64,000 bases of DNA from an uncultured bacterium (GCA_903825105.1 CAIJZI010000005.1:18821-82820); one strand, 5' to 3'. Positions 38,227-48,615 are shown, counted from the stretch's first letter. Notes: a model not told the origin generated them from the sequence alone. Program-made: numbers and translations.

Positions 38227-38673
38227 ATGGTCGAATTAAGGAATTGGAAATTCGCGAGCCTAGTTTTCTTTGGGCAGGTTGGCGTGTTTGTTGCTGCATA
38301 CTCTGTCTACCAAAATGTTTTGTGTGCTCTTACTGACACATTTCTCTTTGCGGCGTTCATTACTATTTGGATGAAAGTCCGCAGGCCGAGAGAAGTACAG
38401 AAGCGTATGTGTTCAAGCTGTGCCGCTTTTGCCGTATTTCCTGCGCTTGTGCACTTGCGATTCCAGCAAGAAACAGAAAGCGTCATACCACTCCTGCTCT
38501 TATTTCTGCTTCCAGCTATAGGGGCCGCAGGAGTTTCAGCCGGCAGTTTTCGGAATTCTCCCAGAAAGTGGTTGTTGAACTTTCTCGCTGATCTCCCGCT
38601 TGGCATCGGCTTCATCGCCGGCGGGGTGATTCTCTCCTGTCAGAAATGGCAGAAGAGAGCAGCAGCAGTCTGA
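38227..38673 (+). CDS. small polytopic membrane protein (paralog B of 2505..2966)
   Basis: MVELRNWKF N-terminus and WLLNFLADLPLGIGFIAGGVIL C-terminus mirror paralog A. Confidence 0.6.
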   Translation: MVELRNWKFASLVFFGQVGVFVAAYSVYQNVLCALTDTFLFAAFITIWMKVRRPREVQKRMCSSCAAFAVFPALVHLRFQQETESVIPLLLLFLLPAIGAAGVSAGSFRNSPRKWLLNFLADLPLGIGFIAGGVILSCQKWQKRAAAV

Positions 38674-38694
38674 TCTTTCTTAAAAAAAATAGCA

Positions 38695-38728
38695 AAAGCG
38701 CGTCTCGCAAGAGACGCGCTTTCTTTTT
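38695..38728 (+). terminator. intrinsic terminator aaagcgcgtctc-gcaa-gagacgcgcttt + TTCTTTTT
   Basis: 12-bp stem with T tail. Confidence 0.65.
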
Positions 38729-38738
38729 AAATATACTG

Positions 38739-38822
38739 CGGAAGGGGTGGGACTCGAACCCACAAGGGCTTTTGGCCCGCCAGTTTTCAAGACTGGTTCC
38801 TTACCATTCGGAGCACCCTTCC
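38739..38822 (-). tRNA. tRNA-Ser (anticodon TGA), long variable arm
   Basis: acceptor ggaaggg/cccttcc, anticodon stem ccagt/actgg loop cTTGAaa, variable arm gggcc/ggccc, T-loop ttcgagt. Confidence 0.85.
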
Positions 38823-38826
38823 ATTT

Positions 38827-39303
38827 CTACTTTTGCAGTGTAGCGCTAAGCCAACTTTTTTCCAAATAATGCTTTTCTGCATGGCAATTTGGGCAAAGTA
38901 ATTCCAAATTGCTTAATTCATTGTGATTTCTGTTTTTATCTTTGTGATGAACATTCAGAATTTCTTTTTTGTTATAGCCACACATCTCACATTTTTCTCC
39001 CCGTAAAGCAAAAAGTCGTAACTTAAGCGAACGCTGATCCTTAACTTTATCTTTCGGGCGCCCAATTTTATAACGAATTCCTGCTCGATGTATATTTGCA
39101 CAACGCCTGCTACACGTTTTTGCATTCATTCTTGCGAGAATCGGCGTCCCACAGACAGCACACGGCGTCTCTTTTCTATTGGCAATTCCATAGCATTCCT
39201 TACCACAAAAAACTCGACCACGCTTTATTTCAGTTGGGCGTCTATAAATTGGCTTAGCACAAACTCCGCACTTAACATTTGGATTTCTTTTATAATTATC
39301 CAC
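38827..39303 (-). CDS. HNH endonuclease with N-terminal zinc-ribbon repeats
   Basis: three CxxC...C repeats then HHKDKNRNHNELSNLELLCPNCH HNH motif; stop 4 nt from tRNA-Ser 5' end. Confidence 0.8.
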   Translation of the reverse strand: MDNYKRNPNVKCGVCAKPIYRRPTEIKRGRVFCGKECYGIANRKETPCAVCGTPILARMNAKTCSRRCANIHRAGIRYKIGRPKDKVKDQRSLKLRLFALRGEKCEMCGYNKKEILNVHHKDKNRNHNELSNLELLCPNCHAEKHYLEKSWLSATLQK

Positions 39304-39336
39304 TCACATATTATACCACTAACACAATAACCTTAA

Positions 39337-39612
39337 TTACACCGATTCTGATGAATGGTGAATATGTGTGTGCTCTGAGTGATTTTTAGAAATATCTTTT
39401 CTGAACCAGATGAGATAGACGATCTCGAGAATGCCGAGCGTGTTGGCGATAAGGAGGAAGAAGAACCACCATTTCTGATTCCCGCGCGCAGCGTGCCAGA
39501 GTGCGAAGCCTTTTAAAACAAGCGTCCATACTATTGCTGCTAAAAATAATGGAGCAAAAACAGCAATTATCGCAGGGGTAAGTGGAGAATAAAAAGGAAG
39601 AAATGTGTGCAT
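39337..39612 (-). CDS. hypothetical small membrane protein with His-rich tail
   Basis: 91 aa, three TM helices. Confidence 0.4.
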   Translation of the reverse strand: MHTFLPFYSPLTPAIIAVFAPLFLAAIVWTLVLKGFALWHAARGNQKWWFFFLLIANTLGILEIVYLIWFRKDISKNHSEHTHIHHSSESV

Positions 39613-39641
39613 ATAAGCGAATTATAGCATAAACTGGGCGT

Positions 39642-40049
39642 ATGCGGTACTTAGGAGTTGATTATGGGAGTAAAAGAGTCGGGATCGCCTTGTCTGGCGA
39701 AGCGGGGAGTATGGGATTCCCTCACTCGATTATCGAGAACACCAAACACCTTGTTGATGAGGTGTGTGCTCTTATTGAAAAAGAAAAAGTCGACGCGATA
39801 GTTATTGGAGATTCAGAAAATTTTTCCGGAGGAAGAAATGCGATTGCTGAAAATGCAAAAAAATTTGGCGATGCCGTGAGTGAGAAAACAGGGAAGCCCG
39901 TATTTTTTGAATCAGAGATTTTTACCACCGCTCTCGCGCGTCGGGTGCCAGAAAAAGAACTGAAATCGCGTTCGCCCAAACAACATAAAAAAGTGGATGC
40001 GTCAGCCGCGGCGCTTATTCTTACCAGTTATCTTTCAAAATATGAATAA
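39642..40049 (+). CDS. ruvX: putative pre-16S rRNA nuclease / Holliday junction resolvase-like YqgF (RuvX)
   Basis: MRYLGVDYGSKRVGIALS N-terminus of YqgF family. Confidence 0.8.
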   Translation: MRYLGVDYGSKRVGIALSGEAGSMGFPHSIIENTKHLVDEVCALIEKEKVDAIVIGDSENFSGGRNAIAENAKKFGDAVSEKTGKPVFFESEIFTTALARRVPEKELKSRSPKQHKKVDASAAALILTSYLSKYE

Positions 40050-40380
40050 AGAAAAAATTTCAATAGAAGACTTTTCAAAAATAGAAGTAAAAGTCGGCAC
40101 GGTAAAAACAGCTGAAAAGATTCCAGAAACAGAAAAACTCTTGCGGCTCACTGTTGATTTTGGCGAAGAAAGTGTACGACAAATTGTTTCTGGTATCGCT
40201 GGATATGTCTCTGAACCAGAATCTTTGATTGGGAGACAGCTCGCTTTTGTTACAAATCTCGAGCCGAGAACGATCCGCGGTTTTGAATCAAACGGTATGC
40301 TCTTCGCGGTTGGCGAAGGAGAATCATTTGCATTTGTTACTCCCGATCGAGAAGTTCCGCCGGGGACCAGTGCACACTAA
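40042..40380 (+). CDS. tRNA-binding protein (CsaA/Myf-type OB domain)
   Basis: IEDFSKIEVKVGTV...TVDFGEE..RQIVSGI...GMLFA matches EMAP/Myf tRNA-binding domain; 8-nt overlap with ruvX. Confidence 0.7.
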   Translation: MNKEKISIEDFSKIEVKVGTVKTAEKIPETEKLLRLTVDFGEESVRQIVSGIAGYVSEPESLIGRQLAFVTNLEPRTIRGFESNGMLFAVGEGESFAFVTPDREVPPGTSAH

Positions 40381-40407
40381 TCACAAATTAATAATCTTTT
40401 TTATGGT

Positions 40408-41517
40408 TTGGCGTTATACTGTTTAGTAATGCATTCAGTTTTTCTTGAACGAGTCAGATCTCAGTTTACGCCACCGCGTTATTTGACTTTTCCTTTTTCA
40501 GGAATTGAACTTTCGGCGAGTGGTGTGAAAGCTGTTCGTCTTGAAGAAACCCCGCATGGTTTTGTGCTCGCAAAATTTGTAGAAGAGCGGTTCCCGTCTG
40601 GAACTTTTGTTGAGGGAGAGGCGGTTGATGGCGATTTGATTATTGAAAAAATAATTACTGCAGCAAAAGCTACTGGCATCTCTTCGGCGAATATAGCATT
40701 GCCAGAATCGAAGTCATTTATTTTTGAAACAACGACGCAAGGAGTTTCTGATGATGAATTGCGTATCGGAGTAGAACAACATCTCGATGAGTTGATACCT
40801 TTACCACCCGCTGAAACAGCCTTTGATATATTAAAGATCGGTAATGACGACCGTGGAAATGTTCGTGTGGCTGGAATCGGCGTAGCAGAGAGGGTTGTAG
40901 ATGACACTCTTCTCTTGTTCGACAGTGCGCGTATAGGTGTACAAGCAATCGAAGAAGAAACATTTGCGATGGCTCGCGCCCTTCTCCCAAATGGCGACCA
41001 GTCAGTTTCCCTGATTATTGATATAGGCAAAACAACAACAAAAATCGTAATTGTGGATAAACGAATCCCGCGGTTCTCCAAAACAATCAATGTTGGTGGG
41101 CATTCATTTACGCTCGCCATTCAAAAATATTTTGGTGTTACAGAAGAAGAAGCGCGAAAGGTGAAGGCAGAACACGGCATTGTTTCGACAGAAGGGAATG
41201 AAGAATACCTATCAGCGATGCTTTCAACTGCGTCTGCGATTCGAGATGAGATTTCTAACTGTATAGAGTATTGGCAAGGGAAAACACGGAATGACCAATC
41301 TTGTGAACCTATAGCGCGAGCCATTCTTTCCGGGGGAAACGCTTCGGTAAAAGGGTTGCCAGAATATTTTAGCGGCACACTTAAAATGCCGGTGGTTTCT
41401 GGAAATGTTTTTACTAATTTTGCATCCAGCGATACATGGATTCCACAACTTACTTACGAAGAATCACTTTCTTACACAACAGCAATCGGATTGGCATTGT
41501 ATGACAGCTCCAAATAA
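40408..41517 (+). CDS. pilM: type IV pilus assembly protein PilM (actin-like ATPase)
   Basis: 369 aa; FSGIELSASGVKAVRL start and actin-fold glycine motifs; followed by pilN/pilO-like genes. Confidence 0.75.
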   Translation: MALYCLVMHSVFLERVRSQFTPPRYLTFPFSGIELSASGVKAVRLEETPHGFVLAKFVEERFPSGTFVEGEAVDGDLIIEKIITAAKATGISSANIALPESKSFIFETTTQGVSDDELRIGVEQHLDELIPLPPAETAFDILKIGNDDRGNVRVAGIGVAERVVDDTLLLFDSARIGVQAIEEETFAMARALLPNGDQSVSLIIDIGKTTTKIVIVDKRIPRFSKTINVGGHSFTLAIQKYFGVTEEEARKVKAEHGIVSTEGNEEYLSAMLSTASAIRDEISNCIEYWQGKTRNDQSCEPIARAILSGGNASVKGLPEYFSGTLKMPVVSGNVFTNFASSDTWIPQLTYEESLSYTTAIGLALYDSSK

Positions 41518-41520
41518 AAT

Positions 41521-42117
41521 ATGAAGAATAATAGAACAAACTTGCTTCCAGAAGAACGACAAAAAACGCTACGCCGAGAATATTTTCTGCGTCTCGGAAC
41601 AGTCGCGATGGTATTTTTAATAGCGCTTGTGTCGTTTGCGGCGATTCTCATTTCTCCGACCTATGTATTTCTTCTTCGTAATGCGCACGCAAAAAATGTG
41701 CAACTTATGAATATTGTGTTAAATGCATCTTCCACAAATAATTCACTATTATTTACGCAAATCGGTGCTCTGTCTGACAGCGCGAAGACTCTGGAAGGTC
41801 TTTCTGATGTTCCTTCAGTTAGCGAGACATTCCGAGCGGTTCTAGCAGTGCCACATCCAGGTATTACGCTGTCAGGTTTTTCTTACACAGTGACGAGTAA
41901 CAAAAAAGCGAACAAATTAGCCATTTCTGGAGTATCGGCGACCCGCGATGCCCTGCGAAATTATCAAATGGCGCTTCAATCAATGTCATTTACTGATTCG
42001 GCGGATCTCCCCGTTTCTGTATATGCAAAAGATTCTAATATTAATTTCACCATCACGGTTGCTCTCGCCCCAACTGATGATTGGCGCTCGTCAATGGGTA
42101 CAAAAACAACACAATGA
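41521..42117 (+). CDS. pilN: PilN-like pilus assembly protein
   Basis: NLLPEERQ N-terminus, single TM, follows pilM. Confidence 0.6.
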   Translation: MKNNRTNLLPEERQKTLRREYFLRLGTVAMVFLIALVSFAAILISPTYVFLLRNAHAKNVQLMNIVLNASSTNNSLLFTQIGALSDSAKTLEGLSDVPSVSETFRAVLAVPHPGITLSGFSYTVTSNKKANKLAISGVSATRDALRNYQMALQSMSFTDSADLPVSVYAKDSNINFTITVALAPTDDWRSSMGTKTTQ

Positions 42118-42641
42118 AATCACCTGCAGCACATTTTTTTATAACAGTAATTGCGTGTGTGTTAGCGCTTTTTGCCTGTCGGTGGTGGTACACAGATGTT
42201 GAAACAAAAAGTGTCGATGTCGCAAATTTACAACAGCAAATTTATTCAGAAACACAGACCGCCGGAATTGTTGGGGCAGCGCGCGCAGAAATCGCGAGAA
42301 TTTCTAGTGATGAGGTTACATTGCAAAATTATTTCGTCCCACAAACAGGCGTTGTCTCATTTATAAATTTTCTTGAAGGAGAAGGCCGGTCACAAGGGTC
42401 ATCGGTAAAAATCCTATCGGTTTCTCCTGGCACAGGGACGCCGCCGACTCTTGTATTGAAATTTACGATAGGCGGAACATTTGATGCGGTGATGCGAACA
42501 GTCGGTACGATAGAATATTCACAGTACGATTTGTATGTTTCGCAATTCTCCGTTACGCAAGATGGAACCAATAGCTGGAATGCAAATGTGGGGCTCGTGG
42601 TCGGATCTATAAATTTACAAACAGCAACAAGTACACCATGA
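42114..42641 (+). CDS. PilO-like pilus assembly protein
   Basis: single N-terminal TM, ATGA overlap with pilN, position in pilMNO order. Confidence 0.45.
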   Translation: MKSPAAHFFITVIACVLALFACRWWYTDVETKSVDVANLQQQIYSETQTAGIVGAARAEIARISSDEVTLQNYFVPQTGVVSFINFLEGEGRSQGSSVKILSVSPGTGTPPTLVLKFTIGGTFDAVMRTVGTIEYSQYDLYVSQFSVTQDGTNSWNANVGLVVGSINLQTATSTP

Positions 42642-42943
42642 GTATTTCAAAAATTAAAAATTCTTTTATAAAACATTTTCACTATGGTGAAATTAATCCG
42701 ATGCGTGATTGGCTCGTGTTGATTACACTGTTTATCATTGCCCTCGCTGGCGTCGTCGTTTGGGATATATGGTCATTCGGGGTAGTGACAAACGGGGGTA
42801 CAATCGGGGGCACCAAAACGGTTTCGACGCAGACACTCGATCAGTCTTCGCTTAACAAAATAAATATTATTTTTTCGAGTCGAGCGGCTGAAGAAAATAA
42901 ATATAAGACTGGCGTGTATCGCTACGCCGACCCTTCGCAATGA
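42638..42943 (+). CDS. hypothetical membrane protein (possible pilus-assembly accessory)
   Basis: 101 aa, one TM, coupled to pilO-like gene. Confidence 0.3.
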   Translation: MSISKIKNSFIKHFHYGEINPMRDWLVLITLFIIALAGVVVWDIWSFGVVTNGGTIGGTKTVSTQTLDQSSLNKINIIFSSRAAEENKYKTGVYRYADPSQ

Positions 42944-42977
42944 TAAATAAAAGATTAGAATATGGTATTATAACCCT

Positions 42978-43289
42978 ATGCCATATAAAAATAGATCCGA
43001 CCTATATGCTGCACAAAAAAGGCATCGTGTGAAAATTCGGCAAAAACTGTTAGAGTATTTATCGGTGAGAGAGTGTGTTGATTGTCGCGAGAAAGACCCG
43101 ATAGTTCTAGAATTCGATCACCGCGATAGAAAGGACAAGTTTAAAATCGTAGTTAAAATGTTGTCCGGGCATTATTCGTGGGAGTCTGTTCTAAAAGAAA
43201 TCAAAAAATGTGATGTGCGTTGTGCAAATTGCCATAGACGAAAAACATATAAGGAACAAAATTGTTGGGGTAAAACTACGCCCTCGTAG
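42978..43289 (+). CDS. HNH endonuclease (small)
   Basis: CVDCREKDPIVLEFDHRD...CANCHRRKT HNH motif; last 10 nt overlap tRNA-Arg. Confidence 0.75.
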   Translation: MPYKNRSDLYAAQKRHRVKIRQKLLEYLSVRECVDCREKDPIVLEFDHRDRKDKFKIVVKMLSGHYSWESVLKEIKKCDVRCANCHRRKTYKEQNCWGKTTPS

Positions 43290-43354
43290 TTAAATGGATA
43301 TAACCGCGGACTTCTAAGCCGCTATTCGAGGTTCGATTCCTCGCGAGGGCACCA
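43280..43354 (+). tRNA. tRNA-Arg (anticodon TCT), CCA encoded
   Basis: acceptor gccctcg/cgagggc, anticodon loop cTTCTaa, T-loop ttcgatt. Confidence 0.8.
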
Positions 43355-43383
43355 ATAAGTAATAAAATTCTCCCATTTTTTAG

Positions 43384-43465
43384 TGCCGTGGGGGAGATTC
43401 GAACTCCCGACTCTTGCGAGATACGCTTCTGAGGCGTACGCGTATACCAGTTCCGCCACCACGGC
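43384..43465 (-). tRNA. tRNA-Leu (anticodon CAG), long variable arm
   Basis: acceptor gccgtgg/ccacggc, anticodon stem tacgc/gcgta loop cTCAGaa, T-loop ttcgaat. Confidence 0.85.
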
Positions 43466-43564
43466 TTAATTTTTAAACTATAGCAACTTTAATGATTATC
43501 ATCACGCAGCACTTGACAAAATATTTTGCTTGATTATATTAGATGAGGGTTTGGAGGAGAAAAT

Positions 43565-43804
43565 ATGGGAAAGAATTTATTTTCAAAAAGAGTTTTCCTG
43601 CCGTGGGTAATTATAACGCTCCTCATCTTCGGTATTCTCGAAGTAATCGAGCGTTTGAACCAGAGTGAATGGGTGATTCTAAGCAAGGAAGAGTTTGAAG
43701 TCCTTGCGGTAGCGTCGCTCGTTGTAGTGGTATATTTTCTCGTTTCGGGGAAGTGGTTCGAGCCTGACTGGGGCCTGCACCGCGAGTTGAAGAACAAAAG
43801 CTAA
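43565..43804 (+). CDS. hypothetical small membrane protein
   Basis: 79 aa, two TM helices; terminator follows. Confidence 0.35.
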   Translation: MGKNLFSKRVFLPWVIITLLIFGILEVIERLNQSEWVILSKEEFEVLAVASLVVVVYFLVSGKWFEPDWGLHRELKNKS

Positions 43805-43808
43805 AAAC

Positions 43809-43845
43809 ACGGCGCGCGGGAGTTTCTACCCGCGCGCCGTTTCGA
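43809..43845 (+). terminator. hairpin acggcgcgcggg-agtttcta-cccgcgcgccgt + TTTCG
   Basis: 12-bp GC stem. Confidence 0.6.
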
Positions 43846-43870
43846 TTATCTGGTAAACTGGTGAATGTTC

Positions 43871-43943
43871 GGGCGATTAGCTCAGTTGGTAGAGCAACGC
43901 ATTTACACTGCGAAGGTCACAGGTTCGAGTCCTGTATCGCCCA
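43871..43943 (+). tRNA. tRNA-Val (anticodon TAC)
   Basis: acceptor gggcgat/atcgccc, anticodon loop tTTACac, T-loop ttcgagt. Confidence 0.85.
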
Positions 43944-43949
43944 CATAAT

Positions 43950-44642
43950 ATGGATCTTCCGATTCTCTATGAAGACTCTGATATCGTCGCTATAAACAAG
44001 CCGGCGGGGCTTATTACTCATAAGGATGGCCGAACAGAAGAAAAAAGTGCCGAAGATTGGTTCACTGAGAGGCGCAAGGTTCAAGGTATAAGTTTGTCTG
44101 ATAAATCAGGATATGTGCATCGCCTCGATAGAGATACTTCGGGCGTTTTACTTTTTGCAAAAAACGAAAAGGCGTATGAATTTATGCGTAAAGCATTTCA
44201 CGATAGGGAAGTGAAGAAGACCTATCTCGCTATCGTTTTTGGTGTGCTCAAAGAGAAGAAAGGAACAATAGATTTTGATATCGGCAGATCGCGAAAGGAT
44301 TTCAGAATGCGCAGCGCACAGCCGAAGGCGAAGGGGAAATTGCGCGAGGCGCTGACGCGCTATGAAGTCGTTGGAGAATATGAGAACTACGCTCTACTTA
44401 AAGTAAATCCAGAGACGGGTAGAACGCATCAGATTCGCGTGCATCTAAAAGCGATTCATCATCCGATTGTTGGTGATACGCTCTATGCGGCGGGGCATAA
44501 AAACACGCTCCCGATCTCGCGCCTTTGTCTCCACGCGGGCGAAATAGATGTGCCCCTTTTGTCGGGAGAAAGAGTCACTATCACCGCCCCAATTCCTGAA
44601 GAACTCGAGAGAACAGTTGCTCTATTTCAGAATGCGTGCTAA
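43950..44642 (+). CDS. RluA-family pseudouridine synthase
   Basis: HRLDRDTSGVLLFAK catalytic motif, 230 aa. Confidence 0.85.
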   Translation: MDLPILYEDSDIVAINKPAGLITHKDGRTEEKSAEDWFTERRKVQGISLSDKSGYVHRLDRDTSGVLLFAKNEKAYEFMRKAFHDREVKKTYLAIVFGVLKEKKGTIDFDIGRSRKDFRMRSAQPKAKGKLREALTRYEVVGEYENYALLKVNPETGRTHQIRVHLKAIHHPIVGDTLYAAGHKNTLPISRLCLHAGEIDVPLLSGERVTITAPIPEELERTVALFQNAC

Positions 44643-44654
44643 TCTGCGCTCCAC

Positions 44655-45143
44655 ATGGAGAAGGTAATTACAACAGTCAATGTTGACGGTCGCGCGCGCC
44701 TCGGGATTCGCGCGGGTGACACGGTGCGCGTGATGCAGAATATCGTCGAGCTTAAGAAGAAGCGCGGCACCGATAAGAAAGAAAAAATCGCGAAAAGCAC
44801 CCGTACCCAAGCCTTTGAAGGCCTCGTTATCGCGACCAAGCACGGCACCGAAGCGGGCGCATCCTTCACTGTTCGCGCGACACTCTCGGGAATTGGTGTC
44901 GAGAAGACCTTTCCACTTTATTCCCCAATGATCGCGTCAATCGAAATCATCAAGCACTCGCGTGTGCGCCGAGCGAAACTCTATTTCATCCGTGAGAAGG
45001 CAACAAAGGCTGTCCGTCGCCAGCTTCGCAATTCGCGCATGATGAATGTGAAGAGCGATGAGACAGTCCCCGTTGAAGTAACTGAAGAAGCTGGCCCAGA
45101 GATTGTAGAAGAAACAAAGCAGGAAGTTGTGTCTGTAGAATAA
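44655..45143 (+). CDS. rplS: 50S ribosomal protein L19 with C-terminal extension
   Basis: GDTVRV...FEGLVIA...KLYFIREK typical L19 core. Confidence 0.9.
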   Translation: MEKVITTVNVDGRARLGIRAGDTVRVMQNIVELKKKRGTDKKEKIAKSTRTQAFEGLVIATKHGTEAGASFTVRATLSGIGVEKTFPLYSPMIASIEIIKHSRVRRAKLYFIREKATKAVRRQLRNSRMMNVKSDETVPVEVTEEAGPEIVEETKQEVVSVE

Positions 45144-45220
45144 ATTTAAAAACAAAACGAAGCCGAGTTATCCACTCGGATTTTGTTCAAATATTATTGG
45201 TATACGCTTATACTTGAGGT

Positions 45221-45931
45221 ATGGGACTGCGTGGGCCGAAACCAAAGAGAAGGGAAGTAATCTGGTCGCCAGAGCTCGCGTATGCGATCGGGCTTATTGC
45301 CACGGACGGATGCCTGTCAAATGACGGCAGGCATCTCTTTTTTGTCTCAAAAGATATTCAACAAATAAAAAATATTAAAAAATGTCTCGGGCTCAAGGTA
45401 AAAATTGGCGTGCACAAGGCAGGAATAAGAATGAAGAATAGAAATTATCATCGAGTGCAGTGGGGCGATATATTTCTATACAATTTTTTGCTCAAAATCG
45501 GTCTCACACCAAACAAATCAAAAACAATTGGAGCACTTGTAGTTCCCGATAAATACTTTTTCGATTTTCTGCGCGGCAATTTTGATGGTGACGGTTCTTT
45601 TTATAGTTATTTTGATCCGCGCTGGGAATCGAGTTTTATGTATTACATCAGTTTTACTTCCGCGAGCGTCTTGTATGTTGAATGGTTACAAAAAACACTA
45701 AATAATTTATTGAAAGTGGATGGACACATAACGAAAGTTAGGATAAACGAAGAAAAATGCTCCCCCATATATAACCTTAGGTTCGCAAAGAGAGAATCGC
45801 TTATTGTTATGAACGCGATGTATTCGACCCGGTGTGAAGTCTGTCTTTCTCGAAAGAGATTGAAAATAGTGCGCGCATTGCGTATAGTGAATAAGTCGCT
45901 TCTTTCAAACAGAAAGAAGCTGACAAGATAA
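45221..45931 (+). CDS. free-standing LAGLIDADG homing endonuclease (two-motif, single chain)
   Basis: LAYAIGLIATDGCL and FLRGNFDGDGSF motifs; stop 1 nt before tRNA-Leu. Confidence 0.8.
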   Translation: MGLRGPKPKRREVIWSPELAYAIGLIATDGCLSNDGRHLFFVSKDIQQIKNIKKCLGLKVKIGVHKAGIRMKNRNYHRVQWGDIFLYNFLLKIGLTPNKSKTIGALVVPDKYFFDFLRGNFDGDGSFYSYFDPRWESSFMYYISFTSASVLYVEWLQKTLNNLLKVDGHITKVRINEEKCSPIYNLRFAKRESLIVMNAMYSTRCEVCLSRKRLKIVRALRIVNKSLLSNRKKLTR

Positions 45932-45932
45932 T

Positions 45933-46014
45933 GCCCAGGTGGCGTAATTGGTAAACGCGTAAGCTTGAGGTGCTTATGTCGCAAGACGTGGAGGTTCAAG
46001 TCCTCTCCTGGGCA
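45933..46014 (+). tRNA. tRNA-Leu (anticodon GAG), long variable arm
   Basis: acceptor gcccagg/cctgggc, anticodon stem taagc/gctta loop tTGAGgt, T-loop ttcaagt. Confidence 0.85.
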
Positions 46015-46022
46015 CAGGAAAT

Positions 46023-46853
46023 ATGGAGAATACACACCCTGTTATTCAGCATCTTTTAGCACGCACAAATAAGAAAGTTCCAATAGAAGATAATAGAAAA
46101 ATTGCACTAATACTTTTTGGTGGTGCGATCGCTGGTGTTAGAGGCGCTGCCGCAGAGCTTGTGCTTAATGACATTGGTTTATCAAATGCCTTCGATGAAA
46201 TATATTCTGCATCAGCAGGATTTTGTAATGCGTCATACCTGCTTTCTGATAATCCAAAAGAGGGAATAGCTATTTATTATGAAGATTTGTGCGGTGATAA
46301 GTTTATAAATTATTTAAAACCGTGGCGTATAGCAGATATCGAATATGTTGTAAATTGCGTTAAAAATTTAAAACCGTTGAAGGTAAGAAAAATTCTAGAA
46401 TCCGAAACAAAATTATTTGTGCGCGTAAAAGATGTAAAAGAAAAGAAAGAAGTTCTTTTAGAGGCGCATGAATTTCCGGATGAAAAGTACTTTCAACTTA
46501 TGCGTGCCGCAACAGCAGTCCCGTATTTAAGTCCTGGAGCTATTAAAGTCGGCGGCATTGAATATAAAGACATTATTACCGACGGTGGTTGGGCAAGTAT
46601 TGTGGGCGATATTTTAAAATCAGACATAACGGATCTGTTAATTATTTACAACACAAGAAGGCAATATGATTTGTTACATAATAAAATCGGACCCCTTCTG
46701 AATTCAGATCGAGTATTTGAAATAGTACCTGAAAAATCTTGGAAATTTTCAAAACTTGAAAGAGATGCAAAAAGCATCAAGAATGCGGCTGAACAAATGA
46801 TTGAATTAACAAAAAATATTTTCGGTGTCGAAAAAGAAATTTCTTTAAATTAG
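46023..46853 (+). CDS. patatin-like phospholipase
   Basis: GGAIAGVRG glycine-rich loop, SASAG nucleophile elbow, DGG catalytic Asp; AT-rich codon usage. Confidence 0.7.
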   Translation: MENTHPVIQHLLARTNKKVPIEDNRKIALILFGGAIAGVRGAAAELVLNDIGLSNAFDEIYSASAGFCNASYLLSDNPKEGIAIYYEDLCGDKFINYLKPWRIADIEYVVNCVKNLKPLKVRKILESETKLFVRVKDVKEKKEVLLEAHEFPDEKYFQLMRAATAVPYLSPGAIKVGGIEYKDIITDGGWASIVGDILKSDITDLLIIYNTRRQYDLLHNKIGPLLNSDRVFEIVPEKSWKFSKLERDAKSIKNAAEQMIELTKNIFGVEKEISLN

Positions 46854-46868
46854 ATATAATAAAAATAT

Positions 46869-47414
46869 ATGCTCTACACACGAAAAGGCGATGATGGGAA
46901 GACAAAATTGTTTTGCGATCAGCAGAAGATTTCGAAGTCGTCAGAAATTCCTGAAACGCTCGGCGCACTCGACGAATTAAATGCATTTCTTGGATTTGTA
47001 AAAATGCGTGCGGCGCATTCAGCGCGAATCGCGGGAGCGATTCGCGCTGCTCAAGAAAATCTTTTTATTATTCAAGCTGAAGTCGCGGGTGCGGATAAAA
47101 AAACAAAAAAGAACGCGGTAAAAAATATAGAGAAACTCATTAATGAAATAGAAAAAGAAATTCCAAAAATAACCGGTTTTTCTATTTCTGGCGGGACGGA
47201 GCTCTCCGCGCTCCTCGATGTCGCGCGCACCGTCGCGCGCCGAGCCGAGCGCCGTGTTGTCGCGGTTAGTGAAATGGACAAATCTGACTTGTCCAAAGGC
47301 AAACTCTCGAACGATACGCTCGTGTATCTGAATCGCTTATCCTCACTCCTCTTCGCGCTCGCGCGCCTCGCCAACCACGAAGCGGGCGTGAAAGAAGAAA
47401 ATCCGAAGTATTAA
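46869..47414 (+). CDS. ATP:cob(I)alamin adenosyltransferase, PduO type
   Basis: TRKGDDGKT...DELNAFLG and C-terminal helices of PduO/MMAB family. Confidence 0.8.
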   Translation: MLYTRKGDDGKTKLFCDQQKISKSSEIPETLGALDELNAFLGFVKMRAAHSARIAGAIRAAQENLFIIQAEVAGADKKTKKNAVKNIEKLINEIEKEIPKITGFSISGGTELSALLDVARTVARRAERRVVAVSEMDKSDLSKGKLSNDTLVYLNRLSSLLFALARLANHEAGVKEENPKY

Positions 47415-47491
47415 AAAGGGAAAGACAAAATATTTTATTTACCCACAACGGAGAGTGTTTCCGTTTCAATAAAAAGATCTATCATAAAGAG

Positions 47492-47986
47492 ATGGCACAA
47501 GCGATTTGTAAATTGTGCGGGAAATCTTTTTATGTAAAACCGCACTGGCTTAAGGTTGGTTATGGTAAATATTGTTCGGCAGATTGTCACCACGCAGGTA
47601 TGAAAAATGGGAAGGAAGTTCCTTGTGCAGTGTGCGGAAAATTATCTTATAAAACTCAAAAAGGTCTCAAGGGTTCAAAAAGTGGCAAGTATTTCTGCAC
47701 CAAAAGATGCCAAACACTCTGGCGTAATCAGCTTTATATTGGCTCGGCGCATAAAAATTTTAAGACAGGAGAATTTGTCTATCGGGCAGTGATGGAACGG
47801 AACAAGGTTCCAAAAATATGCAAATTGTGTAAAACTACAGATTACCGAGTCTTGGCGGCACATCACCTCGACAAGAACCGGAAAAACAACGCATTAGAAA
47901 ATCTCGTATGGCTTTGCCACAATTGCCATTTTCTTGTGCATCATTCTGAACCAGAACGAGAGAAACTGATAAAAGTGAAAAAATAA
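47492..47986 (+). CDS. HNH endonuclease with zinc-ribbon repeats (paralog of 38827..39303)
   Basis: repeated CxxCG...C modules then HHLDKNRKNNALENLVWLCHNCH; stop 1 nt before tRNA-His. Confidence 0.8.
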   Translation: MAQAICKLCGKSFYVKPHWLKVGYGKYCSADCHHAGMKNGKEVPCAVCGKLSYKTQKGLKGSKSGKYFCTKRCQTLWRNQLYIGSAHKNFKTGEFVYRAVMERNKVPKICKLCKTTDYRVLAAHHLDKNRKNNALENLVWLCHNCHFLVHHSEPEREKLIKVKK

Positions 47987-47987
47987 T

Positions 47988-48065
47988 GGTGGTCGTAGCT
48001 CAATTGGCTAGAGCATCTGCTTGTGGAGCAGAAGGTTGTGGGATCGTCCCCCATCGACCACCCCA
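47988..48065 (+). tRNA. tRNA-His (anticodon GTG) with G-1 and encoded CCA
   Basis: 8-bp acceptor ggtggtcg/cgaccacc, anticodon loop tTGTGga, T-loop atcgtcc. Confidence 0.85.
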
Positions 48066-48072
48066 AACACGA

Positions 48073-48105
48073 GTTGACAAATAAGTTGGTAGCTGTATTA
48101 TAAAT
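48073..48105 (+). promoter_or_regulatory. sigma70-like promoter TTGACA-N17-TATTAT upstream of 48148 gene
   Basis: consensus hexamers read directly after tRNA-His. Confidence 0.4.
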
Positions 48106-48147
48106 TTCGGATTGCACGACGATACCCTCTGAACTGAAAGGGAAGAG

Positions 48148-48615
48148 ATGAAGACTTTTGAGGAACAGCAACAAATGCTCGATGAGTTTTTTGAACAAAT
48201 CATCGCTCAAACAAAAGCGTTTGTTGAACAAAACGAACTCATTCCGCTTGGTCGCCGTTACGAATTTTCTGTCAGTGTGAGGCGTCGCAGGACGGGAATT
48301 AATCTCACCACTAAAAAGAAAATGAGCACAGTGCCGCGCTGGAAGATGACCAACGAACTTCCGTCCGATCAAGATTGGGAGCAAATCTTTGCTCTGCCCC
48401 AGCTGGATCCTGCAATCTATGGACCTGGCACAGGGCCAAGCTTTCTTAAAGAGACACTCGAAGAGGTCAAGAAAGCAAATTCTGGCAATGGGACTTACAT
48501 TCGTTACGGATCGGGCTATGTTTCAAAAATCAACAAAATCCTCGAAGAGGCCAACAGCGAATTCCGTTTGTTTTCTCGGGGTAGCGAACAGTACATCCTC
48601 AGAAGGATTCAGTAA
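48148..48615 (+). CDS. hypothetical cytoplasmic protein
   Basis: 155 aa; no family recognised. Confidence 0.35.
   Translation: MKTFEEQQQMLDEFFEQIIAQTKAFVEQNELIPLGRRYEFSVSVRRRRTGINLTTKKKMSTVPRWKMTNELPSDQDWEQIFALPQLDPAIYGPGTGPSFLKETLEEVKKANSGNGTYIRYGSGYVSKINKILEEANSEFRLFSRGSEQYILRRIQ

What the first reader, a model, noticed from the sequence alone, without database searches (positions are those of the whole stretch)
38739..48065. Four homing-endonuclease-like genes each abut and are co-oriented with a tRNA gene
Three HNH genes (38827..39303 minus, 42978..43289 plus, 47492..47986 plus) and one LAGLIDADG gene (45221..45931 plus) each end 0-4 nt from the 5' end of a co-oriented tRNA (Ser-TGA, Arg-TCT, His-GTG, Leu-GAG). 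In one case the HNH stop codon lies inside the tRNA. Four of the eight tRNAs in the window have this arrangement. Each nuclease mRNA would then be transcribed as a tRNA precursor leader and released by RNase P. This points to tRNA-targeted mobile nuclease genes or a domesticated tRNA-linked expression arrangement. The tRNAs show no introns.
Basis: partly seen in the sequence, partly recalled or inferred. Interest (0 to 1): 0.75.

Follow-up and report, generated by a model that had tools for sequence, protein, structure and literature searches.

The report
Nuclease-tRNA cassettes overwriting resident tRNA genes
Four small nuclease genes in this ultra-small bacterium each sit directly in front of one particular tRNA gene, and related genomes suggest that nuclease plus tRNA form a selfish cassette that breaks the resident tRNA gene and supplies its own copy.

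Summary
Two programs place the four nuclease ORFs 4, -10 (overlap), 1 and 2 nt from the 5' ends of tRNA-Ser(UGA), Arg(UCU), Leu(GAG) and His(GUG).

The pairing is not chance. Each nuclease family is tied to one tRNA across Patescibacteria:
- HNH1 with Ser: 79 of 80 loci.
- HNH4 with His: 76 of 80.
- HNH2 with Arg(UCU): all 6 genome groups.
- LAGLIDADG with Leu(GAG): all 7.

Syntenic relatives carry the same tRNAs without the nucleases, and the four genes assort independently.

New here: many loci keep stubs of a second, different copy of the same tRNA around the unit. In L132 and L148 a 5' stub and a 3' stub with complementary acceptor strands flank [promoter-HNH4-intact tRNA-His]. So the tRNA looks like cargo, and the resident gene was split. 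Only the LAGLIDADG stub is detectable in the window itself.

Best reading: intron-less homing-endonuclease cassettes that replace their target tRNA gene. They appear to be expressed as leaderless mRNAs that read into the tRNA. Cleavage, homing and co-transcription are inferred, not shown.

Strong purifying selection on the nucleases keeps a domesticated role possible.

I found no prior description. I rate it a new variant of a known kind.

The parts
38694..38723 (-). Intrinsic terminator just downstream of tRNA-Ser; it ends the HNH1-tRNA-Ser unit
   Evidence: 13-bp stem followed by a T run. No terminator-like site lies between the HNH1 ORF and the tRNA.
38738..38822 (-). tRNA-Ser(UGA), intact, no intron; proposed cargo of cassette 1
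   Evidence: ARAGORN; Rfam tRNA 52.3 bits. In 79 of 80 related loci a tRNA-Ser(TGA) follows the HNH1 homologue.
38827..39303 (-). HNH1: two zinc ribbons plus an HNH nuclease domain, 158 aa, GTG start
   Evidence: PF01844 at 30.3 bits. Invariant C105 C108 H119 H120 N128 N132 C137 C140 H141 H145 in the family alignment. AF2 model pLDDT 81; Foldseek matches HNH domains of Cap5, McrA, ZRANB3 and T4 endo VII with probability up to 1.0.
39310..39318 (-). Extended -10 box TGGTATAAT ending 6 nt before the GTG start; predicts a leaderless mRNA
   Evidence: Read from the sequence. 65 of 81 HNH1 loci have a TATAAT-like hexamer ending exactly 6 nt before the start codon, against 0 of 81 when the test is displaced by 10 nt.
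39311..39326 (-). Possible decayed 5' stub of a former tRNA-Ser (weak in this window)
   Evidence: TGTGTTAGTGGTATAA against tRNA-Ser positions 8-23 scores at background level. Clear stubs starting at tRNA position 1 occupy the same place in L001, L023, L017, L035, L050, L057, L073 and L076.
42953..42974 (+). Left end of cassette 2: GATTAGAA motif (family consensus GGGTTAGAA, resembling T arm GGGTTCGAA) and a -10-like TATTATAAC
   Evidence: Read from the sequence. GGGTTAGAA-N8-TATAAT-N6/7-ATG is conserved in 7 distinct loci. L174-L178 match tRNA-Arg positions 41-58 at 16 of 18. This is suggestive only; nhmmer finds nothing.
42978..43289 (+). HNH2: 103-aa mini HNH-like nuclease; its last 10 nt, including the stop codon, lie inside tRNA-Arg
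   Evidence: CxxC...DH...CxxCH is invariant in 25 homologues. hhalign against the HNH1 family gives E 1.7e-4. AF2 pLDDT 88, but Foldseek is not significant. 83 of 120 homologues end in P[SL], the residues encoded by tRNA 5'-GCCCYYGTAG.
43280..43354 (+). tRNA-Arg(UCU), intact; proposed cargo of cassette 2
   Evidence: All HNH2 homologues looked up (6 genome groups) overlap a tRNA-Arg(TCT) by 10-15 nt.
45163..45179 (+). Terminator-like hairpin after rplS, upstream of cassette 3
   Evidence: It is absent from the empty allele in L001, where rplS is followed after 10 nt by tRNA-Leu(GAG).
45196..45220 (+). 5' stub of a former tRNA-Leu(GAG), D loop to anticodon loop (positions 15-39), flush with the ATG; holds the -10-like TATACT (45209-45214) and the GAGG of the anticodon loop
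   Evidence: nhmmer with a tRNA-Leu(GAG) profile gives E 3.5e-3 in the upstream-region search and 6.8e-3 in a 13-kb search of the window. The same stub is seen in L162/L163, and in decayed form in L164 and L166.
45221..45931 (+). Double-motif LAGLIDADG endonuclease, 236 aa
   Evidence: PF14528 at 30.9 bits. Best PDB sequence hit is 2dch, a putative homing endonuclease, E 4.6e-4. 2965 homologues found.
45933..46015 (+). tRNA-Leu(GAG), intact; proposed cargo or restored gene of cassette 3
   Evidence: All 12 related loci (7 distinct contexts) have tRNA-Leu(GAG) 1-24 nt after the LAGLIDADG stop.
47440..47485 (+). Left end and promoter of cassette 4: TACCCACAAC (family motif TATCCACAA, the reverse complement of the tRNA-His anticodon loop), a -35-like GTTTCC, and -10 TATCAT (47480-47485) ending 6 nt before the ATG
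   Evidence: Read from the sequence. TCCACA[AG] occurs in 30 of 62 distinct loci at -45..-60, against a shuffle expectation of 0.008. 43 of 62 loci have a -10 box 6-8 nt before the start. No tRNA-His stub is detectable in this window.
47492..47986 (+). HNH4: paralogue of HNH1 (two zinc ribbons plus HNH), 164 aa
   Evidence: 31% identity to HNH1, E 1e-18. 84% identity to the L001 orthologue. dN/dS 0.045 against L001.
47989..48065 (+). tRNA-His(GUG), intact, with an unusual T loop (GGGATCGTCCCC); proposed cargo of cassette 4
   Evidence: 76 of 80 metagenome loci have tRNA-His within -23..+37 nt of the HNH4 stop; in 48 the stop lies exactly 15 nt inside the tRNA.

Best explanation
The four genes are homing-type endonuclease genes. 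HNH1 and HNH4 are paralogues with two zinc ribbons plus an HNH domain. HNH2 is a mini HNH-like protein. The fourth is a double-motif LAGLIDADG enzyme.

Each is the protein-coding part of a compact cassette: [-10 promoter, leaderless nuclease ORF, complete tRNA gene]. Each family is dedicated to one tRNA:
- HNH1 with tRNA-Ser(UGA).
- HNH4 with tRNA-His.
- HNH2 with tRNA-Arg(UCU).
- LAGLIDADG with tRNA-Leu(GAG).

Shown:
- The pairing, and the abutting or overlapping geometry.
- Presence/absence at syntenic sites.
- In many relatives, stubs of a different copy of the same tRNA on one or both sides of the cassette.

Inferred mechanism:
1. The nuclease cuts the resident cognate tRNA gene in one of its conserved loops. 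The predicted sites are the D loop for HNH1, the 3' side of the anticodon loop for HNH4 and LAGLIDADG, and the T loop for HNH2.
2. Repair from a cassette-bearing copy uses the tRNA-derived flanks as homology and copies in the nuclease gene together with a working tRNA.
3. The essential function is kept without an intron or intein, and the old gene decays to stubs.

Inferred expression:
- Transcription starts at the start codon and runs into the tRNA.
- RNase P then frees the tRNA.
- Where the stop codon lies inside the tRNA, this leaves a non-stop nuclease mRNA, which would limit nuclease expression.
For: 1. Family-to-tRNA specificity.
- HNH1: at least 446 relatives in species-representative genomes. 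79 of the best 80 have a co-oriented tRNA-Ser(TGA) directly downstream. The stop lies inside the tRNA in 25, at 0-5 nt in 31, and at most 100 nt away.
- HNH4: at least 440 relatives. 76 of 80 lie within -23..+37 nt of tRNA-His.
- HNH2: all 6 genome groups overlap tRNA-Arg(TCT). 83 of 120 proteins end in the tRNA-encoded P[SL].
- LAGLIDADG: 12 of 12 loci precede tRNA-Leu(GAG).

2. Empty sites and independent assortment.
- L001 has HNH1 and HNH4 but lacks HNH2 and LAGLIDADG.
- L179-L186 have HNH2 but lack HNH1; there DUF5652 is followed directly by tRNA-Ser.
- L183 also lacks LAGLIDADG and HNH4.
- In loci fetched for other reasons, occupancy is His 1 of 9, Arg(TCT) 0 of 20 and Leu(GAG) 1 of 12.

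3. Stubs.
- 23 of 74 HNH4 loci have a tRNA-His 5' half (positions 1 to about 38) roughly 55 nt before the ATG, with E down to 4.5e-9.
- 5 loci also have a 3' stub after the intact tRNA.
- In L132 the stub acceptor strands GTGTCCA and TGGACAC are perfectly complementary. In L148 GTGTCTA and TAGACAT pair. The intact tRNA between them has a different acceptor stem.
- Stubs differ in type from the local intact tRNA but match tRNAs of other genomes.
- 8 of 81 HNH1 loci have a tRNA-Ser stub starting at position 1.
- The LAGLIDADG stub is present in the window itself.

4. A dated gain. L001 is closer to HNH1-less L179 (RuvX 75%, PilM 71%) than to the window (59-61%). The L001 stub GGAGGGGTCGCATAGTGGT matches L179's intact tRNA-Ser at 18 of 19 positions. 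L001's working tRNA-Ser is another type.

5. Expression signals. A -10 box ends 6 nt before the start in all four window genes and in 65 of 81 HNH1 and 43 of 62 HNH4 loci. There is no terminator before the tRNA and one after tRNA-Ser.

6. Other nuclease families occupy the same niche. In L130 a LAGLIDADG gene (PF14528, E 7e-11) lies 2 nt before tRNA-His.
Against: - No cleavage, homing or transcript data exist.
- In the window itself only the LAGLIDADG stub is detectable. The HNH1 stub is at background level, and HNH2 and HNH4 have none. Most related loci also lack recognisable stubs.
- An intact cargo tRNA should contain the target site again. I found no consistent 'resistant' sequence class. 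The same tRNA-Ser and tRNA-Arg types occur with and without the nuclease.
- HNH1 and HNH4 are more conserved than neighbouring housekeeping genes. Mean pairwise identity is 64% for HNH1 against 43% for RuvX. Between the window and L001, dN/dS is 0.045 for HNH4 with dS saturated. This is unusual for selfish genes at fixed sites and fits a host-useful role equally well.
- Nuclease identity does not track cargo-tRNA identity (Spearman 0.05-0.12). Co-transfer of nuclease and tRNA is therefore not shown by that test.
- HNH2's nuclease fold is only weakly supported.
Confidence: 0.68

Rival explanations
1. Domesticated, vertically inherited nucleases. On this view the genes entered once, are kept because they serve the host, and are simply lost in some lineages. 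Possible host roles include allele-specific exclusion of incoming DNA or a role tied to expression of the linked tRNA.
For: - HNH1 and HNH4 are as conserved as ribosomal protein L19 between the window and L001 (79% and 84% against 78%). dS is saturated and dN/dS for HNH4 is 0.045.
- Catalytic residues are invariant in all sampled copies.
- The locus is syntenic in most genomes; RuvX lies within 3 kb in 55 of 80.
- The closest host pairs also have the most similar HNH1.
Against: - Three unrelated nuclease folds or families show the same geometry.
- Occupancy is low in related genomes.
- The four genes assort independently.
- Stubs of a different tRNA copy flank the unit.
- L001 appears to have gained the cassette after splitting from HNH1-less L179.
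Confidence: 0.17
2. Ordinary free-standing homing endonuclease genes that insert beside or into the resident tRNA and carry only the displaced 5' part of the tRNA, not a whole foreign tRNA. The working tRNA would then be a fusion of the element-borne 5' part with the resident 3' part.
For: - The LAGLIDADG stub in the window is the same tRNA type as the intact tRNA (20 of 25 identical).
- Most loci have no 3' stub.
- Double-strand-break repair using a 5' stub and the tRNA 3' half as homology arms predicts exactly this product.
Against: - Five HNH4 loci have a 3' stub after a complete tRNA.
- Its acceptor strand pairs with the 5' stub, not with the intact tRNA.
- Stub and intact tRNA differ over the whole 5' half, including the acceptor stem.
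Confidence: 0.1
3. Relics of group I intron-containing tRNA genes, whose intron-encoded endonuclease gene survived while the ribozyme was lost.
For: - Group I introns, some with HNH genes, are known in Patescibacteria tRNA anticodon loops (PMC13011429).
- The HNH4 and LAGLIDADG junctions lie at the anticodon loop.
Against: - No group I or group II intron signal appears in 38600-48300 even at E up to 1.
- A complete, uninterrupted tRNA follows each ORF.
- The HNH1 junction (D loop) and HNH2 junction (T loop) are not typical intron sites.
Confidence: 0.03
4. Chance adjacency in a gene-dense genome, or mis-called tRNA ends.
For: Intergenic spacers are short throughout the window.
Against: - Two independent tRNA finders agree on the ends.
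- The same pairing recurs in more than 170 independent loci.
Confidence: 0.01

Closest known systems
Phage T4 SegB, a free-standing GIY-YIG homing endonuclease in the T4 tRNA gene cluster (PMC2330249)
   Same: - It is an intron-less endonuclease gene lying among tRNA genes.
- Its 27-bp site contains the conserved T-psi-C stem-loop motif of a tRNA gene.
- It drives inheritance of itself together with neighbouring tRNA genes.
   Different: - SegB is a phage gene of another nuclease family.
- It serves a multi-tRNA cluster and is not packed 0-4 nt in front of one tRNA.
- No split resident tRNA with stubs has been described for it.
- Here the elements sit in bacterial chromosomes, one nuclease family per isoacceptor, in hundreds of species.
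Intron-less homing / marker exclusion by free-standing T-even phage endonucleases (SegF, SegG, MobE; my own knowledge, plus PMC2790892 listed)
   Same: The endonuclease gene sits next to a copy of its target gene. Cleavage of the sensitive allele leads to co-conversion of nuclease gene and adjacent allele.
   Different: In those phages the target gene is replaced in place by homologous flanks. Here the resident gene is physically split and left as stubs, and the cargo is a whole short RNA gene.
Group I introns with HNH or LAGLIDADG genes in tRNA genes of Patescibacteria and Cyanobacteriota (PMC13011429)
   Same: The host phylum is the same, the targets are tRNA genes, the nuclease families are the same, and insertions are at the anticodon loop.
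   Different: There the tRNA is restored by RNA splicing. Here no ribozyme is found and function is apparently restored by a spare gene copy.
LAGLIDADG endonuclease genes in rRNA insertion sequences of CPR bacteria (PMC11270868, listed)
   Same: The same phylum, with LAGLIDADG enzymes colonising conserved structural RNA genes.
   Different: Those sit inside rRNA genes as intervening sequences. This family sits before tRNA-Leu(GAG), always after rluD-rplS.
Integrase-driven genomic islands and prophages that integrate into tRNA genes and carry a replacement for the displaced end (my own knowledge)
   Same: The element inserts in a tRNA gene and carries tRNA sequence that keeps a working gene. 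A duplicated tRNA fragment marks the far junction.
   Different: Those use tyrosine or serine recombinases, usually restore the 3' end, and are kilobases long. These cassettes are 0.4-0.8 kb with a single nuclease ORF and no recombinase.
Fractured genes with free-standing homing endonuclease genes and split inteins (PMC2677866, listed)
   Same: An endonuclease gene lies between the two halves of a split host gene.
   Different: There function is restored by protein trans-splicing. Here the halves are dead and a spare gene is supplied.

Membership tests
HNH (His-Me finger) endonucleases | Beta-beta-alpha-metal core with a catalytic His, Asn/His metal ligands and, in this subgroup, two CxxC zinc pairs: HNH1 | tested here: met
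   PF01844 at 30.3 bits, above the 21.4 cut-off. Invariant C105, C108, H119-H120, N128, N132, C137, C140-H141 and H145. Foldseek matches HNH domains with probability 0.99-1.0 at rmsd about 2.5 over 64 residues.
HNH (His-Me finger) endonucleases | The same core: HNH4 | tested here: met
   Below Pfam cut-offs on its own. BLASTP E 1e-18 to HNH1 with all motif residues aligned. The family profile gives E 6e-43.
HNH (His-Me finger) endonucleases | The same core: HNH2 | tested here: inconclusive
   CxxC...DH...CxxCH is invariant. hhalign against the HNH1 family gives 49% probability, E 1.7e-4. The HNH2 profile hits the HNH1 ORF at E 8.7e-4. No PDB sequence hit. The confident AF2 model (pLDDT 88) has HNH domains as top Foldseek hits, but at E 0.9 or worse.
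LAGLIDADG endonucleases | LAGLIDADG domain(s); two motifs in a single chain for monomeric enzymes | tested here: met
   PF14528 at 30.9 bits, above the 22.5 cut-off. Two motifs can be read in the translation: LAYAIGLIATDG and LRGNFDGDGS. PDB hits include 2dch (E 4.6e-4) and I-CreI derivatives.
Homing endonuclease genes (functional class) | Presence/absence polymorphism at one defined site in a conserved target gene | tested here: met
   Empty syntenic sites exist for all four genes.
Homing endonuclease genes (functional class) | Distribution not explained by vertical descent alone | tested here: inconclusive
   For: the four genes assort independently, and L001 appears to have gained the cassette after splitting from L179. 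Against: dS is saturated between the window and L001 copies, and HNH1 identity correlates weakly but positively with host genes.
Homing endonuclease genes (functional class) | Site-specific cleavage of the nuclease-free allele and copying of the gene by repair | not testable with these tools
   This needs enzyme assays or crosses.
Homing endonuclease genes (functional class) | The occupied allele is protected because the site is disrupted or altered | tested here: inconclusive
   The resident gene is disrupted into stubs, but the cargo tRNA is intact and no consistent resistant variant was found.
Group I intron-encoded endonucleases | The ORF is embedded in a self-splicing ribozyme that interrupts the tRNA | tested here: not met
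   No Intron_gpI or group II match at gathering score or at E up to 1. The tRNAs are uninterrupted.
Integrative elements targeting tRNA genes | A tyrosine or serine recombinase in the element, and att repeats | tested here: not met
   Each cassette holds one ORF, the nuclease. No recombinase lies between the flanking housekeeping genes.

The most novel reading that the evidence does not exclude
These may be a so far undescribed class of selfish element, 'tRNA-replacing homing cassettes'. The endonuclease gene would solve the problem of inserting into an essential gene by carrying a complete spare copy of its short RNA target, rather than by an intron or intein. It would also borrow the tRNA's processing: RNase P and the tRNA terminator would serve as its own 3' end, and a stop codon inside the tRNA would give non-stop mRNA control. 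If so, such cassettes repeatedly overwrite tRNA genes across Patescibacteria. They could be a driver of the unusually divergent, sometimes non-canonical tRNAs of this phylum.
Probability: 0.5. Interest if true: 0.85.

Novelty: new variant of a known kind. Interest (0 to 1): 0.8.

Why it matters
Homing endonuclease genes are thought to persist in essential genes only inside self-splicing introns or inteins, or beside a resistant allele in phages. A cassette that carries a spare copy of its target would be a further strategy. It would operate in cellular chromosomes of a very large, poorly understood bacterial phylum.

If the reading is right, several things follow:
- Horizontal replacement of tRNA genes would be an ongoing process. 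That bears on tRNA evolution and on tRNA-based phylogenetic or annotation assumptions in Patescibacteria.
- It would supply several compact (103-236 aa) nucleases with predicted long, conserved targets that can be tested directly.
- It would give a natural case where a protein-coding mRNA is the 5' leader of a tRNA, sometimes with its stop codon inside the tRNA. RNase P processing and translation would then compete.

Tried and rejected
- **Nuclease identity against cargo-tRNA or host-gene identity.** Correlations were weak (Spearman 0.05-0.24) and cannot separate transfer from saturation. I did not use them as evidence for transfer.
- **Local alignment of each upstream region to its own downstream tRNA.** This gave no signal for HNH1, because stubs are of a different tRNA type. 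Signal appeared only with a panel or profile of tRNAs.
- **A tRNA-Arg stub before HNH2.** nhmmer finds nothing. There is only a 16-of-18 match in one genome group and the conserved GGGTTAGAA motif, so I left it as suggestive.
- **My first reading of GGGTTAGAA/TTAGAA as a -35 box.** Rejected, because it lies only 8 nt from the -10.
- **An embedded tRNA promoter in the conserved C-terminal HYLEKSWL coding region of HNH1.** The motif-to-tRNA distance varies from 37 to 157 nt and Leu codon use is not decisive. Not claimed.
- **A 'resistant' class of cargo tRNAs.** 26 of 57 HNH4-linked tRNA-His lack the canonical GTTCRA T loop, but the other three tRNA types show no difference. Not conclusive.
- **PDB sequence search for HNH2.** No hit.
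- **Look-up of the window's own HNH2 protein to identify the source genome.** Only two contigs of about 1 kb were returned, which was uninformative. The homologue tables list a 91,240-nt NCBI/ENA contig for the 100%-identical proteins P0121 and P0241.
- **Literature searches.** They found intron-borne tRNA endonucleases and T4 SegB, but no description of this arrangement. The library is incomplete, so absence is not proof.

Full report
**1. Observation**

ARAGORN finds eight tRNA genes in the window. Rfam's tRNA model gives the same 5' ends. The ORF list and the sequence itself show the following.
- HNH1, 38827..39303 (-), ends 4 nt before tRNA-Ser(TGA).
- HNH2, 42978..43289 (+), overlaps tRNA-Arg(TCT) by 10 nt. 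Its stop codon is the TAG of the tRNA's GCCCTCGTAG.
- The LAGLIDADG gene, 45221..45931 (+), ends 1 nt before tRNA-Leu(GAG).
- HNH4, 47492..47986 (+), ends 2 nt before tRNA-His(GTG).

Pfam confirms HNH for HNH1 and LAGLIDADG_3 for the 236-aa protein. HNH4 is a paralogue of HNH1, 31% identical with E 1e-18. HNH2 has no Pfam hit. It carries an invariant CxxC...DH...CxxCH pattern and matches the HNH1 family profile weakly.

Six-frame profile searches find no other member of these families in the 64 kb. All four nuclease-like genes therefore abut a tRNA. By my arithmetic the chance of that is about 3e-12.

**2. Each nuclease family is tied to one tRNA**

The genome-collection scan with an HNH1/HNH4 alignment found at least 446 relatives, all in Patescibacteria-type assemblies.
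- In 79 of the best 80 loci a co-oriented tRNA-Ser(TGA) follows directly. The exception is cut by a contig end.
- The stop codon lies inside the tRNA in 25 loci, 0-5 nt before it in 31, and at most 100 nt away.

The metagenome scan for HNH4 found at least 440 relatives.
- 76 of the best 80 lie within -23..+37 nt of tRNA-His(GTG).
- In 48 the stop lies exactly 15 nt inside the tRNA.

The HNH2 family has 1584 proteins, is 67-82% identical, about 103 aa long, and has almost no Pfam annotation.
- It overlaps tRNA-Arg(TCT) by 10-15 nt in all six genome groups looked up.
- 83 of its 120 best members end in P[SL], the residues encoded by the tRNA's first ten bases.

The LAGLIDADG family has 2965 proteins. 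It lies 1-24 nt before tRNA-Leu(GAG) in all 12 loci, always after rluD-rplS.

Other nucleases use the same niche. In L130 a single-motif LAGLIDADG gene (PF14528, E 7e-11) lies 2 nt before tRNA-His, and a LAGLIDADG-like ORF abuts tRNA-Arg(CCT).

**3. Empty sites**

- The syntenic relative L001 has HNH1 and HNH4. There rplS is followed after 10 nt by tRNA-Leu(GAG), and tRNA-Arg(TCT) has no HNH2.
- Loci chosen through HNH2 (L179-L186, two genome groups) have DUF5652 followed directly by tRNA-Ser(TGA), with no HNH1. L183 also lacks the LAGLIDADG gene and HNH4.
- In loci fetched for unrelated reasons, occupancy is 1 of 9 for tRNA-His, 0 of 20 for tRNA-Arg(TCT) and 1 of 12 for tRNA-Leu(GAG).

The four genes assort independently among relatives.

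**4. The tRNA is part of the unit; the resident tRNA is broken**

Searching 250 nt upstream of the nuclease start codons with isoacceptor profiles gave clear results for HNH4.
- 23 of 74 loci have a tRNA-His 5' half (positions 1 to about 38, ending with the anticodon loop TTGTGGA) roughly 55 nt before the ATG. E values go down to 4.5e-9.
- Five of these loci also have a 3' stub (T arm, acceptor 3' strand, CCA) 6-44 nt after the intact tRNA.
- In L132 the 5' stub begins GTGTCCA and the 3' stub ends TGGACAC-C-CCA, a perfect complement. In L148 GTGTCTA pairs with TAGACAT. The intact tRNA-His between the stubs has a different acceptor stem.

The stubs are thus two halves of one former tRNA-His, split by insertion of [promoter-HNH4-complete tRNA-His]. 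Stubs differ from the local intact tRNA (for example 26 of 39 identical) but match tRNA-His genes of other genomes almost perfectly.

The other families show weaker versions of the same pattern.
- HNH1: 8 of 81 loci have a tRNA-Ser fragment starting at position 1, matching at 16 or more of 18 positions (the shuffled maximum was 15). It is again of another type than the intact tRNA.
- LAGLIDADG: a tRNA-Leu stub (positions 15-39) ends flush with the start codon, including in the window at 45196-45220.
- HNH2: only a conserved GGGTTAGAA motif, which resembles the T arm, and one 16-of-18 match. This is suggestive only.

In the window itself, only the LAGLIDADG stub is detectable.

**5. A dated gain**

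L001 is closer to HNH1-less L179 (RuvX 75%, PilM 71%) than to the window (59-61%). The stub before HNH1 in L001, GGAGGGGTCGCATAGTGGT, matches L179's intact tRNA-Ser at 18 of 19 positions. L001's working tRNA-Ser is the GGAAGGGTGCTCCGAATGGT type also found in the window.

The simplest history is insertion of an HNH1-tRNA-Ser cassette into the resident gene after L001 split from L179.

**6. Expression signals**

- All four window genes have a -10-like hexamer ending exactly 6 nt before the start codon: 39315-39310, 42966-42971, 45209-45214 and 47480-47485.
- The same holds in 65 of 81 HNH1 and 43 of 62 HNH4 loci, against 0-1 when the test is displaced by 10 nt. This predicts leaderless mRNAs.
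- No terminator lies between ORF and tRNA, and a strong one follows tRNA-Ser.

Because the resident promoter is left upstream of the stub, the cargo tRNA probably depends on the nuclease promoter. RNase P would then separate mRNA and tRNA. Where the stop codon is inside the tRNA, the processed mRNA would lack a stop. These steps are inferred.

**7. What argues for caution**

- HNH1 and HNH4 are under strong purifying selection and are more conserved than neighbouring housekeeping genes. dS between the window and L001 copies is saturated, so there was no recent transfer between these two lineages.
- Nuclease identity does not track cargo-tRNA identity.
- The cargo tRNA should carry the target site again, and I found no consistent resistant variant.
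- No ribozyme is present, so relics of group I introns are unlikely.
- No recombinase is present.

**8. Comparison and novelty**

The closest known case is phage T4 SegB. It is a free-standing endonuclease in a tRNA cluster that recognises a tRNA T-loop motif and spreads with neighbouring tRNA genes. Patescibacteria are also known to have intron-borne HNH genes in tRNA genes and LAGLIDADG genes in rRNA insertions.

What I did not find described has three features:
- an intron-less, one-nuclease-one-tRNA cassette in bacterial chromosomes;
- a resident tRNA gene that is split and then replaced by cargo;
- several nuclease families and hundreds of species.

I rate it a new variant of a known kind and of high interest.

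Noticed in passing
window 43383-43870: tRNA-Leu(CAG) is on the minus strand here. In relatives L001 and L179, Arg(TCT), Leu(CAG) and Val(TAC) are co-oriented and nearly contiguous. The window also has about 400 extra bases holding a 79-aa membrane-like ORF (43565..43804), a consensus promoter (43513-43540) and a minus-strand terminator (43840-43809). This looks like a local inversion or insertion next to cassette 2.
   Followed up: no
window 46023-46853: A 276-aa ORF starts 8 nt after tRNA-Leu(GAG). I take it to be patatin-like by eye only; no domain search was run. It has no counterpart in L001 or L162, where Cob_adeno_trans follows the tRNA directly, and tblastn finds it in no other fetched locus. 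It is an indel directly downstream of cassette 3.
   Followed up: partly
window 47989-48065; L082-L161: Many HNH4-linked tRNA-His genes are non-canonical. 26 of 57 lack the GTTCRA T loop (for example GGGTGCAAATCCC; the window has GGGATCGTCCCC) and 16 of 57 lack GG in the D loop. The nuclease-free copies and the three recognisable 3' stubs (L132, L142, L148) mostly have canonical T loops. This may relate to nuclease resistance, or may be a lineage trait.
   Followed up: partly
window 47440-47449; L082-L161, 45-60 nt before the HNH4 start: The motif TCCACA[AG], the reverse complement of the tRNA-His anticodon loop, occurs in 30 of 62 distinct loci at a fixed position. Where a 5' stub is present it forms TTGTGGA-N3-4-TCCACAA palindromes. 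It could be an autoregulatory operator or a repair scar. Unexplained.
   Followed up: partly
L130 (about 536 nt between the HNH4 stop and tRNA-His): Two nuclease genes are stacked before one tRNA-His: an HNH4 gene, then a 150-aa single-motif LAGLIDADG gene (PF14528, E 7e-11) ending 2 nt before the tRNA.
   Followed up: partly
L132 and three other loci (ORF abutting tRNA-Arg(CCT) or tRNA-Arg(GCG), gap 0): A 207-aa ORF with an N-terminal helix-turn-helix-like part and a LAGLIDADG-like motif (LYWGEGAK) ends 0 nt before tRNA-Arg(CCT). It has no Pfam hit. It may be a further tRNA-linked nuclease family.
   Followed up: partly
L179 3438-4766 and L180 4082-5416: A large serine recombinase gene (Resolvase, Recombinase, Zn_ribbon_recom) lies about 1.5 kb beyond the 3' side of the nuclease-free tRNA-Ser(TGA). 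It may belong to an integrated element using the same tRNA from the other side.
   Followed up: no
L001 12926-14302: A reverse transcriptase (RVT_1) next to a bAvd gene, which is a likely diversity-generating retroelement, lies beside rpsT in the syntenic relative. It is not present at that place in the window.
   Followed up: no
protein family of HNH1/HNH4: A profile of the zinc-ribbon-plus-HNH family matches 1899 cluster representatives (50% identity clusters) at E 1e-10 or better, and 21,034 at E 1e-3 or better. Many are 150-170 aa long. There may therefore be many more sub-families, perhaps tied to other tRNAs. Their genomic contexts could not be looked up.
   Followed up: no
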